Of a stretch of 64,000 bases of DNA, positions 31,468-31,957 are shown one piece after another. This DNA is from Escherichia coli (GTDB taxonomy: Bacteria > Pseudomonadota > Gammaproteobacteria > Enterobacterales > Enterobacteriaceae). The position numbers and the translations under genes were made by a program. The notes beneath the pieces are model-generated. The model was not told the DNA's origin. It made no database searches and saw only the letters and a list, made by a program, of their open reading frames with translations. The DNA is taken from NCBI RefSeq assembly GCF_013315695.1, contig NZ_CP054353.1; one strand, 5' to 3'. The stretch's first letter is position 1. The number at the start of each line of letters is the position of its first letter.

Positions 31468-31505
31468 CCAAAAAGAAAACCCGTAGTTTTTATGCTGCGG
31501 GTTTG
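31468..31505 (-). terminator. Intrinsic terminator of the hok-like transcript
   Basis: On the minus strand: cccgcag-loop-ctacggg stem followed by ttttcttttt, downstream of the hok-like ORF. Confidence 0.5.
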
Positions 31506-31588
31506 TTTCATGTCTGTGAGATAGGGTGCCTTATCGACCTTACCCTGGCAACCGATTGACGGGGGATTGCTCCCCCGTCGCGGTTTCC

Positions 31589-31729
31589 TTACTGCTTACA
31601 CTGTAAGAACGCCGCAAACTCCGCTCCCCAGAAGCTCATCCGTATTTCGCACAGTGAACCGTGCAGCATCCAGATGATGAGGATTGCCGTCACGCAGAAC
31701 GTGATGGCCGTAAGCGATTTTTGCGACAT
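31589..31729 (-). CDS. Hok/Gef-family type I toxin
   Basis: 46-aa ORF MSQKSLTAITFCVTAILIIWMLHGSLCEIRMSFWGAEFAAFLQCKQ: N-terminal TM helix, SLCEIR motif and AAF...C tail as in Hok/HokE; below the ORF-track length cut-off. Confidence 0.7.
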   Translation of the reverse strand: MSQKSLTAITFCVTAILIIWMLHGSLCEIRMSFWGAEFAAFLQCKQ

Positions 31730-31859
31730 AGCACTTGCTCCTTTTCCGGAGAGGCGCTAACCTTTCACTTGTCAAGGTAATGCGGTTAGGGCCTCGGTTA
31801 AACAGAGATGTTTTCCGGGGCCTTTCCACATCTGGCCTTCGGGTATTCCCTCCGACCAT
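31596..31859 (-). CDS. mok-like overlapping reading frame
   Basis: 87-aa ORF in a different frame that starts upstream of and runs through the hok-like ORF, the arrangement expected for mok in hok/sok loci. Confidence 0.4.
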   Translation of the reverse strand: MVGGNTRRPDVERPRKTSLFNRGPNRITLTSERLAPLRKRSKCYVAKIAYGHHVLRDGNPHHLDAARFTVRNTDELLGSGVCGVLTV

Positions 31860-31957
31860 CAGCCGAAAGGCACCCGCGCGTAATTTACCGTTTCCTGAGT
31901 AAATTCTCCAAATAAAATTCCACAGTCAAAAGTACAGAAACAAAAACAGGTATGTGA

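What the first reader, a model, noticed from the sequence alone, without database searches (positions are those of the whole stretch)
31468..31900. hok/mok-like type I toxin locus between ihfA and the prophage end
A 46-aa Hok-family ORF with the SLCEIR signature is overlapped by a longer out-of-frame mok-like ORF and followed by an intrinsic terminator. K-12 has no hok homologue at the ihfA-btuC junction as far as I recall, so this is accessory DNA, either brought in with the prophage end or present at the integration site. Its antisense sok-like RNA should lie on the plus strand around 31730-31870.
Basis: partly seen in the sequence, partly recalled or inferred. Interest (0 to 1): 0.55.

Follow-up and report, generated by a model that had tools for sequence, protein, structure and literature searches.

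The report
Prophage-borne hok/sok toxin–antitoxin cassette
This is an ordinary, already catalogued Hok/Sok-type toxin–antisense-RNA cassette, carried as cargo at the right end of a P2-family prophage that sits in the ihfA terminator; its one unusual point is that the 'mok' helper reading frame is not conserved among its relatives.

Summary
A 46-aa Hok/Gef ORF lies at 31729..31589 on the minus strand (Pfam PF01848 E=4.8e-7; PHROG 251 E=1.3e-22). It sits in a ~430-nt cassette (~31895..31465) whose edges match a predicted hok mRNA (31875..31471). The predicted mRNA has a 5'-3' fold-back, and a predicted ~60-nt antisense RNA lies on the plus strand (31770..~31830). That RNA's promoter has the same layout as the annotated sokW and sokC promoters.

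The cassette is prophage DNA, not host DNA. The att core is a 25-nt repeat equal to the ihfA terminator (31305-31329), and K-12 homology ends at 31329.

The cassette is common. It occurs in 1,547 of 5,426 complete E. coli genomes, in P88-like and Stx phages, and on 35 plasmids. RefSeq annotates it as 'Hok/Gef family protein'. The identical peptide (id 72_1621) is in a 2025-26 preprint's toxicity panel, and it is not among the three constructs reported non-toxic.

Two corrections apply. It is not the published hokW (31% identity); 933W carries both loci. The 87-codon 'mok-like' ORF is real in the window, but 29 of 58 variants have no ORF overlapping the hok start.

Verdict: already known, low interest.

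The parts
31305..31329 (.). att core (attR copy): GGCCGCTCTGCGGCCTTTTTTCTTT, which is the ihfA intrinsic terminator
   Evidence: In strain SCU-176 this is an exact 25-nt direct repeat 35,245 bp apart, flanking the whole prophage between ihfA and btuC. K-12 has one copy, and K-12 homology ends at 31329.
31330..31464 (.). Phage arm of attR, between the att core and the hok cassette; contains a hairpin at 31406-31427
   Evidence: Not in K-12. Nearly identical in SCU-176. Not conserved among other cassette carriers. Hairpin reported.
31471..31875 (-). Predicted full-length hok mRNA (~405 nt)
   Evidence: The 5' end matches the start of the Rfam RF01794 alignment and the start of the conserved block. 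MFE -171.7 kcal/mol, z=-7.3 against shuffles.
31882..31887 (-). hok promoter -10 (TAAATT; TAGATT in P88-type copies). The weak -35 candidate TGGAGA at 31910-31905 lies outside the conserved block.
   Evidence: Read from the sequence and alignments. The promoter scan found nothing at its 9-of-12 threshold.
31861..31875 (-). 5' 'tac'-like element (GGGUGCCUUUCGGCU) with three alternative partners
   Evidence: It pairs with the fbi in the full-length MFE, with 31829-31817 in the alifold consensus, and locally when the fbi is removed. Near-invariant.
31817..31829 (-). Internal partner of the 5' end (anti-tac-like, GUGGAAAGGCCCC)
   Evidence: RNAalifold consensus over 56 variants, 54-56 of 56 paired per position.
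31827..31840 (-). Conserved SD-like GAAGG (31840-31836) followed by AUG (31831) and GUG (31829): the best-placed start for a leader or mok-like ORF
   Evidence: Present in about 54 of 56 variants, but the ORF end varies from 75 nt before the hok ATG to 134 nt past it.
31596..31859 (-).
   Evidence: Present in the window. Not conserved: 29 of 58 variants lack any such ORF.
31738..31743 (-). hok Shine-Dalgarno AAGGAG, 8 nt before the ATG; sequestered in a local hairpin in both predicted folds
   Evidence: Sequence; folds.
31589..31729 (-). hok CDS (46 aa, Hok/Gef family)
   Evidence: Intact in 74 of 74 copies. pN/pS=0.17. Identical to peptide 72_1621 of the preprint.
31524..31539 (-). fbi-like element (GGUCGAuAAGGCACCC) that pairs with the 5' end
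   Evidence: 15 bp with one bulge in the MFE. The 5' end pairs to this 3' region in the MFE of 51 of 56 variants. The GGCACCC core is near-invariant.
31470..31504 (-). hok intrinsic terminator (stem 31504-31477, then UCUUUUU)
   Evidence: Conservation ends here.
31735..31763 (+). Sok-like promoter: -35 TTGCTC (31735-31740, overlapping the complement of the hok SD), 17-nt spacer, -10 TAACCT (31758-31763)
   Evidence: Same layout, and the same -10, as upstream of the annotated sokW; same layout as sokC. The -10 is invariant in 37 of 38 variants.
31770..31830 (+). Predicted Sok-like antisense RNA (~60 nt): variable single-stranded 5' tail 31770-31787, hairpin 31788-31824, then UUUCC
   Evidence: Fold -30.2 kcal/mol, z=-4.1. 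The hairpin is more stable on the plus than on the minus strand in 37 of 38 variants, and it is kept through different inner-stem sequences. The 3' end ...GGGGCCUUU resembles sokW and sokC.
31958..32215 (-). ogr/Delta-like late activator, the last prophage gene before the cassette
   Evidence: NCBIfam PRK09678 E=3.4e-8; PHROG 603 E=2.4e-13; same position in Chuche and SCU-176.

Best explanation
The locus is a self-contained hok/sok-family type I toxin-antitoxin cassette. It is carried as cargo (a moron) at the right end of a P2-family (P88-like, Xuanwuvirus-type) prophage integrated in the ihfA terminator.

Shown or directly computed here:
- A ~405-nt mRNA (31875..31471, minus strand) encodes a 46-aa membrane toxin of the Hok/Gef family.
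- In its predicted full-length fold, the 5' end is locked to a 3'-proximal fbi element, and the hok SD sits in a local hairpin.
- The 5' end has alternative internal partners, so removing the 3' end allows refolding.
- From the opposite strand, a promoter homologous to those of sokW and sokC should give a ~60-nt antisense RNA (about 31770-31830). It is fully complementary to the leader, with a variable single-stranded 5' tail and a conserved hairpin.

Inferred from the R1 hok/sok and hokW-sokW paradigms, not shown here:
- The short-lived antisense RNA keeps the stable hok mRNA silent, through duplex formation and cleavage or translational block.
- When transcription of the cassette stops, the antisense RNA decays. 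That could happen through prophage loss, host transcription shut-off by an infecting phage, or prophage induction.
- The processed hok mRNA is then translated, and Hok damages the inner membrane.
- The most likely benefit to the phage is stabilisation of the prophage or suicide of compromised hosts. I hold this biological role with low confidence.
For: Toxin:
- Pfam HOK_GEF E=4.8e-7; PHROG 251 E=1.3e-22; nearest NCBIfam model HokA; 43% identity to K-12 HokA.
- All seven family-conserved residues named in the preprint, plus the second Cys, are present at a constant offset of 4 (peptide, logo positions).
- The ORF is intact in 74 of 74 copies, with pN/pS 0.17.
- The identical peptide was in the published toxicity panel. 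Only three other ids were non-toxic.

mRNA:
- Rfam RF01794 hits the hok strand with E=2.1e-9.
- Full-length MFE z=-7.3 with 5'-3' pairing, reproduced in 51 of 56 variants.
- Alternative 5' partners appear.
- The non-coding leader is as conserved as the CDS.

Antisense RNA:
- The promoter layout equals that of the annotated sokW and sokC.
- The -10 is invariant in 37 of 38 variants. The hairpin is more stable on the plus strand in 37 of 38 (-26.7 vs -18.3 kcal/mol) and is preserved through different inner stems.

Prophage cargo:
- The att core repeat and the K-12 comparison place it inside the prophage.
- In P88 and Chuche the cassette lies next to tail gene D (after ogr in Chuche), on the att/int side.
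- The same cassette sits next to lom in Stx phages and on 35 plasmids.

Mechanism precedent: hokW-sokW was shown to be a type I TA system (PMC8621323).
Against: - No expression data for either RNA at this locus.
- Rfam score 48.4 is below the gathering score of 59. NCBIfam Hok models are far below their cut-offs.
- The promoter scan found no consensus-grade promoter. The hok -35 lies outside the conserved block.
- The Sok hairpin is followed by only UUU, which is a weak terminator.
- The fbi and tac cores are almost invariant, so there is little true covariation. Only one-sided G.U/A-U/G-C changes were seen.
- An overlapping mok ORF, essential in R1, is absent in half of the family.
- The hok SD stays sequestered in both predicted folds, so the activating step is not visible in silico.
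- Chromosomal hok loci tested earlier did not give post-segregational killing (as cited in the preprint).
Confidence: 0.88

Rival explanations
1. The cassette is an inactive relic. The toxin gene is recognisable but the locus no longer works as a TA system, as reported for the chromosomal hok loci of K-12, which are IS-disrupted or unable to give post-segregational killing.
For: Half of the family lacks a mok-type overlapping ORF. Rfam and NCBIfam scores are sub-threshold. The hok promoter is weak. Earlier work found chromosomal hokA/B/C unable to mediate PSK (cited).
Against: The ORF is intact in 74 of 74 copies and under purifying selection (pN/pS 0.17). The leader, fbi, Sok promoter and hairpin are 85-99% conserved while the flanks are unrelated. 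No IS disruption is present. The identical peptide is not among the non-toxic constructs. The cassette is spread across phages, plasmids and 28% of complete E. coli genomes.
Confidence: 0.07
2. The cassette is functional, but its main role is to help phage release at induction, as shown for hokW-sokW in Sp5. Loss of Sok after induction lets Hok permeabilise the membrane and advance lysis. On this reading, maintenance and defence are not its main roles.
For: Direct experimental precedent in a prophage-borne family member (PMC8621323). The cassette lies directly downstream of, and co-oriented with, ogr and the late tail operon, with no terminator-like site found between ogr and hok on that strand. 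Late read-through into hok is therefore possible.
Against: This cassette is only ~31% identical in peptide to HokW and is a separate locus that coexists with hokW in 933W. It is also found on conjugative plasmids, where lysis timing is irrelevant. The reported hokW effect was only about two-fold.
Confidence: 0.25
3. The cassette is host (integration-site) DNA that was present between ihfA and btuC before the prophage arrived.
For: It lies only ~140 nt from the host/prophage junction.
Against: The 25-nt att core lies on the ihfA side of it, and the second copy lies 35 kb away next to btuC. Free phage genomes (P88, Chuche, P884B11, 500465-2) carry the cassette. K-12's empty site lacks it.
Confidence: 0.01

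Closest known systems
Hok '60%-identity cluster 72' of Escalera-Maurer et al. (bioRxiv 10.1101/2025.08.07.668861); RefSeq 'Hok/Gef family protein' (WP_000078916.1 in strain SCU-176); PHROG 251
   Same: The preprint's sequence 72_1621 is the identical 46-aa peptide, and 72_1589 is the 933W variant. The locus carries the same annotation in 1,547 complete E. coli genomes.
   Different: Nothing at the protein level. That study deliberately did not analyse mok, Sok or mRNA structure. Those are mapped here only by computation.
hokW-sokW of Stx2 phage Sp5/933W (Takada et al. 2021, PMC8621323)
   Same: Both are prophage-borne hok/sok family members. They share the Sok promoter layout and -10 TAACCT, a similar mRNA 5' end (GCGGGTGC...), and the AGGTTAGC box.
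   Different: Only 31% peptide identity, and no blastn-level DNA similarity (933W gave only one matching place). HokW is 51 aa, and mokW is an in-frame N-terminal extension starting 8 nt inside Sok. Here frame 0 is closed by an invariant UAG, and an overlapping mok is not conserved. The Sok start is 41 rather than 49 nt from the hok ATG. 933W carries both loci, at different places.
hok/sok (parB) of plasmid R1
   Same: The overall design matches what I recall for R1, with elements predicted here. That design is a ~400-nt stable mRNA with a 5' tac and a 3' fbi fold-back, alternative 5' pairings, and a ~60-nt cis-antisense RNA with a single-stranded 5' tail and one hairpin. The Sok -35 overlaps the complement of the hok SD.
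   Different: No detectable DNA similarity by blastn. The Rfam model is matched only below threshold. R1's out-of-frame mok, whose start lies in the Sok target, has no conserved counterpart here. R1's post-segregational killing role is not shown for this prophage copy.
hokA of E. coli (K-12 copy disrupted by IS150)
   Same: Nearest named Hok: 43% identity, best NCBIfam model. Both cysteines are hard-coded, so no TadA recoding is needed (sequence; background).
   Different: Below the HokA equivalog cut-off (34 vs 89 bits). 46 vs 50 aa. Phage-borne and intact rather than chromosomal and IS-disrupted.

Membership tests
[quoted passage not shown] | Small hydrophobic Hok/Gef-family peptide (Pfam PF01848) with the conserved Cys/Thr...LCE...E pattern | tested here: met
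   Pfam E=4.8e-7 over residues 7-44. PHROG 251 E=1.3e-22. Residues M1, C12, T14, L26, C27, E28, E37 and C44 match logo positions 1, 16, 18, 30, 31, 32, 41 and 48 of the preprint.
[quoted passage not shown] | Peptide is toxic when overexpressed | not testable with these tools
   Literature only. The identical peptide 72_1621 (construct LRP137) was in a 45-member panel in which only 19_179, 60_1482 and 69_1540 were non-toxic. I did not see the figure itself.
[quoted passage not shown] | cis-encoded antisense RNA (Sok) with its own promoter, complementary to the hok mRNA leader | tested here: met
   Predicted only. The promoter layout is the same as for the annotated sokW and sokC. The -10 is invariant in 37 of 38 variants and the hairpin is strand-asymmetric in 37 of 38. 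The fold has z=-4.1. Expression was not tested.
[quoted passage not shown] | Leader RNA matching the curated family model (Rfam RF01794) | tested here: inconclusive
   48.4 bits, E=2.1e-9, full model length, on the hok strand, but below the gathering score of 59.
[quoted passage not shown] | Long-range 5' (tac) to 3' (fbi) fold-back in the full-length mRNA, with alternative 5' pairing after 3' truncation | tested here: met
   15-bp 5'-3' helix in the MFE, z=-7.3. Seen in 51 of 56 variants. Alternative partners appear. The support is conservation plus one-sided changes, with little true covariation.
[quoted passage not shown] | mok reading frame overlapping hok, whose translation is required for hok translation and whose start lies in the Sok target | tested here: inconclusive
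   The window has an open frame 31859..31596 with possible starts at AUG 31859, GUG 31829 and UUG 31775. However, 29 of 58 variants have no overlapping ORF in any frame, and frame 0 is closed by UAG at -30 in 55 of 56. Coupling itself cannot be tested here.
[quoted passage not shown] | Slow 3' processing of a stable mRNA and a short Sok half-life | not testable with these tools
   Needs rifampicin chase and northern analysis.
HokA equivalog (NCBIfam NF007290) / Hok subfamily model NF007279 | Score above the curated cut-off | tested here: not met
   34 bits vs cut-off 89, and 21.6 vs 73. 43% identity to K-12 HokA. It is a separate subfamily (the preprint's cluster 72, versus cluster 93 for HokA).
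hokW-sokW (Sp5/933W) | Orthology to the published 51-aa HokW locus | tested here: not met
   31% identity over 35 aa. The paper's primers do not match the window. 933W holds hokW at 58460-58734 and this cassette type at 45493-45865. The 'MokW-like' label on phage records matches the description of PHROG 251.
P2-family (Peduoviridae, P88-like) prophage cargo | Lies inside the element bounded by att repeats, next to ogr/D, and is present in free phage genomes | tested here: met
   25-nt att repeat. ogr, D and sheath homologues. P88, Chuche, P884B11 and 500465-2 carry it. attL and int lie beyond the window end.

The most novel reading that the evidence does not exclude
This Hok subfamily (cluster 72) may work without a classical mok. 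In about half of its natural variants, including phages P88, Chuche and the 933W copy, no ORF overlaps the hok start. A conserved SD+AUG/GUG at 31840-31827 instead opens a short leader ORF that stops 13-75 nt upstream of the hok ATG. If these variants are active TA systems, Sok must control hok by a mok-independent route. Candidates are antisense-triggered decay, refolding of the SD hairpin, or coupling through an upstream-terminating leader ORF. The hypervariable Sok 5' tail (31770-31787) would then act as a specificity code that lets up to 7 copies coexist in one genome.
Probability: 0.3. Interest if true: 0.35.

Novelty: already known. Interest (0 to 1): 0.14.

Why it matters
For annotating this window, it settles three things:
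- What the ~430-nt cassette at 31465-31895 is.
- That it belongs to the prophage.
- Where the attachment site is: the ihfA terminator, 31305-31329.

Beyond that, it is one more copy of a very common mobile hok/sok cassette. Its peptide has already been catalogued and included in a toxicity panel.

The only point of wider interest is regulatory. The family comparison suggests that the mok leader frame, treated as essential in the R1 paradigm, is dispensable or replaced in this subfamily. This is testable, because natural mok-plus and mok-minus variants differ by only a few bases.

Tried and rejected
I used a codon-degenerate DNA pattern instead.
- The promoter scan returned nothing at its threshold. 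Promoters were therefore assigned by homology to the annotated sokW and sokC and by conservation.
- I looked for compensatory changes in the tac/fbi and tac/anti-tac helices. The elements are nearly invariant, so only one-sided changes were found.
- I built an alignment for a formal pair count of the Sok hairpin (A2) but did not run it. The two main variants pair in different registers, so one consensus structure would misreport them. Per-variant folding and the strand-asymmetry test were used instead.
- I first assumed the Stx-phage hit was the published hokW. This was rejected after checking primers and peptide.
- I first tested only the two out-of-frame mok frames. After seeing that mokC and mokW are in-frame extensions, I added frame 0 and SD-preceded leader ORFs.
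- I looked for attL, int and btuC in the window. They are not there, because the prophage runs past base 64000. The att core was therefore defined in strain SCU-176.
- No protein-database search, structure prediction or covariance-model building was done. None would change the verdict.

Full report
**1. Observation**

- On the minus strand there is a 46-aa ORF at 31729..31589: MSQKSLTAITFCVTAILIIWMLHGSLCEIRMSFWGAEFAAFLQCKQ.
- An overlapping 87-aa ORF in another frame lies at 31859..31596.
- Downstream on the same strand a hairpin (31504..31477) is followed by UCUUUUU. The scan tool lists the palindromic stem on the + strand only.
- The neighbours are pheT and ihfA on the left (99.6% identical to K-12).
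- On the right are an ogr-like zinc-finger gene, a gpD-like tail gene and a tail sheath gene. This is the right end of a P2-family prophage.

**2. Family assignment of the peptide**
- Pfam HOK_GEF E=4.8e-7.
- PHROG 251 ('MokW-like host killing', moron category) E=1.3e-22 over the full length.
- The best NCBIfam model is HokA, but far below its cut-off: 34 vs 89 bits.
- Pairwise identity is 43% to K-12 HokA and 30-31% to HokC and HokW.
- The residues that a recent survey finds conserved in more than 80% of Hok peptides (M1, C16, T18, L30, C31, E32, E41), plus the second cysteine, are all present at a constant offset of 4.

**3. The unit is a discrete cassette**

A codon-degenerate pattern over WGAEFAAFLQCK found more than 120 viral contigs. 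These gave 74 complete copies, 60 of them unique.
- All 74 keep a 45-47-aa ORF.
- Conservation is 85-99% from about 31895 to about 31465. It drops to about 35% outside that block.
- The untranslated leader is as conserved as the coding part.
- pN/pS over 36 distinct CDS is 0.17.

**4. The hok mRNA**
- Rfam RF01794 ('sok') matches the minus strand at 31875..31716: E=2.1e-9, 48.4 bits, below the gathering score of 59.
- The model consensus begins like the hokW 5' region and ends in AUG, so it runs in the hok-mRNA sense. The hit therefore marks the hok leader.
- The 405-nt RNA 31875..31471 folds to -171.7 kcal/mol (z=-7.3). Nucleotides 1-15 pair to 31539-31524 (GGUCGAuAAGGCACCC), which is a fold-back of the fbi type.
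- The 5' end pairs to that 3' region in the MFE of 51 of 56 family variants.
- RNAalifold prefers an alternative partner at 31829-31817.
- With the fbi removed, the 5' end forms a local hairpin.
- Three mutually exclusive partners for one 5' element is the logic I recall for R1 hok (my own knowledge).
- The elements are nearly invariant. The support is therefore conservation plus one-sided changes, not covariation.

**5. The antisense RNA**
- On the plus strand, TTGCTC (31735-31740), a 17-nt spacer and TAACCT (31758-31763) have the layout found upstream of the annotated sokW (933W) and sokC (K-12).
- That layout has the -35 overlapping the complement of the hok SD. In sokW the -10 is the same TAACCT, followed by 6 nt and then the start. 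The RNA ends in ...GGGGC(C)UUU.
- This puts the start at 31770/31771 and the end near 31825-31832.
- The RNA has an 18-nt single-stranded 5' tail and a hairpin at 31788-31824 (-30.2 kcal/mol, z=-4.1).
- Across 38 variants the -10 is invariant in 37.
- The hairpin is kept through different inner stems (AAACA/UGUUU, GGUUAAC/GUUGACU and others). It is more stable on the plus than on the minus strand in 37 of 38 variants (mean -26.7 vs -18.3 kcal/mol). The reason is that G.U pairs become C.A mismatches on the other strand. This is strand-specific evidence for a structured plus-strand RNA.
- The 5' tail and its target (31770-31787) are the most variable part of the cassette.

**6. mok**

The 87-codon frame is real in this copy but is not a family feature.
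- In 29 of 58 variants (P88, Chuche and the 933W copy among them), no ATG/GTG/TTG ORF in either alternative frame overlaps the hok start.
- In K-12 and 933W the annotated mokC and mokW are in-frame N-terminal extensions of hok, starting 8 nt inside Sok. Here frame 0 is closed by a UAG at -30 in 55 of 56 variants. That UAG is part of the AGGTTA box, which is the Sok -10 on the other strand.
- A conserved GAAGG followed by AUG/GUG at 31840-31827 opens a leader ORF in nearly all variants. Its end ranges from 75 nt before the hok ATG to 134 nt past it.
- Whether hok translation is coupled to anything here cannot be decided by computation.

**7. Where it belongs**
- K-12 homology ends at 31329, just after the ihfA terminator. 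K-12 has 100 bp between ihfA and btuC and no hok.
- In strain SCU-176, which shares the ihfA-hok junction at 99%, the 25-nt sequence GGCCGCTCTGCGGCCTTTTTTCTTT occurs twice, 35,245 bp apart. The two copies bracket a complete P2-family prophage, with integrase next to btuC.
- In the window the core is at 31305-31329. attL lies beyond base 64000.
- Phage genomes place the cassette near the tail-gene end on the att/int side. Chuche shows the order D, ogr, hok, com/methylase, int. In P88 the cassette lies just beyond tail gene D, near the end of the record.
- So the cassette is phage cargo, about 140 nt inside attR.
- 295 of 5,426 complete E. coli genomes have this same junction, including O104:H4 outbreak strains.

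**8. Distribution and prior knowledge**
- The cassette alone is in 1,547 of 5,426 complete E. coli genomes, with up to 7 copies. It is always annotated 'Hok/Gef family protein'.
- It is in 198 phage records, both P88-like Peduoviridae and Stx phages, and in 35 plasmid records.
- The Stx-phage copy lies next to lom. It is not the published hokW-sokW, which 933W carries elsewhere.
- hokW-sokW has been shown to be a type I TA that aids phage release (PMC8621323).
- A 2025-26 preprint catalogues Hok diversity and reports enrichment in prophages. Its Table S2 lists the identical peptide (72_1621) and the 933W variant (72_1589) among 45 constructs. 42 were toxic, and the three exceptions are other ids.
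- That study did not analyse mok, Sok or the mRNA structure.

**9. Verdict**

This is a correct first-stage call on an ordinary, already annotated element. The mechanism I commit to is the hok/sok one:
- a stable, self-locked toxin mRNA;
- an unstable cis-antisense RNA;
- activation when transcription of the cassette stops.

Shown here by computation: the anatomy, its conservation, and its prophage location. Inferred from R1 and hokW-sokW: RNA half-lives, 3' processing, the way Sok blocks expression, and the biological role (stabilisation, host-shutoff suicide or lysis help).

The one open point worth an experiment is the apparent dispensability of mok in this subfamily.

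Noticed in passing
window 31229-31373 (+): Rfam STnc540 (RF02082) matches the ihfA 3' end plus terminator above its gathering score (41.1 vs 38 bits). The prophage integrates in that terminator, and attR rebuilds the hairpin and U-run.
   Followed up: partly
window 56804-57763 (-), next to 57840-60713 (-): A ParM-like partition protein (PHROG 691 E=1e-90; weak NCBIfam ParM/PRTRC_D hits) lies inside the P2-family prophage, beside the gene A-type replication nickase. SCU-176's annotation also lists a small partition/stability family gene next to it. Together with hok/sok, this mirrors what I recall as plasmid R1's two stability loci.
   Followed up: partly
L005 1501-1873 (AF125520.1 45493-45865, phage 933W): 933W and Sp5-type Stx phages carry a second hok-type cassette next to lom (peptide MSQKSLITVTICMTVIFTIWMLHGSLCEFRLNLWGAEFAAFLQCKQ). 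It is not annotated as hok in the original record, and it is distinct from the annotated hokW/mokW/sokW at 58460-58734.
   Followed up: yes
window 31893/31894: There is a mosaic breakpoint at the upstream edge of the cassette. The 295 genomes that share the ihfA-hok junction diverge from the window on the ogr side. The hok -35 region therefore differs between carriers. SCU-176 also has a DUF3800 gene between ogr and D.
   Followed up: partly
window 31770-31787: The predicted single-stranded 5' tail of Sok and its target are the most variable segment of an otherwise 85-99% conserved cassette. Genomes hold up to 7 copies. This would fit diversification of antisense specificity to avoid cross-talk.
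   Followed up: partly
window 31406-31427 (+): A terminator-like hairpin (AAGCCCGCTACATTGTGGGCTT followed by a T-rich tail) next to a G-rich run lies in the 135-nt attR phage arm, between the att core and the hok terminator. Its function was not examined.
   Followed up: no
window 31876-31957 (-): No terminator-like site was found on the minus strand between the ogr stop (31958) and the hok mRNA start. Transcription from ogr or the late tail operon could read into hok.
   Followed up: no
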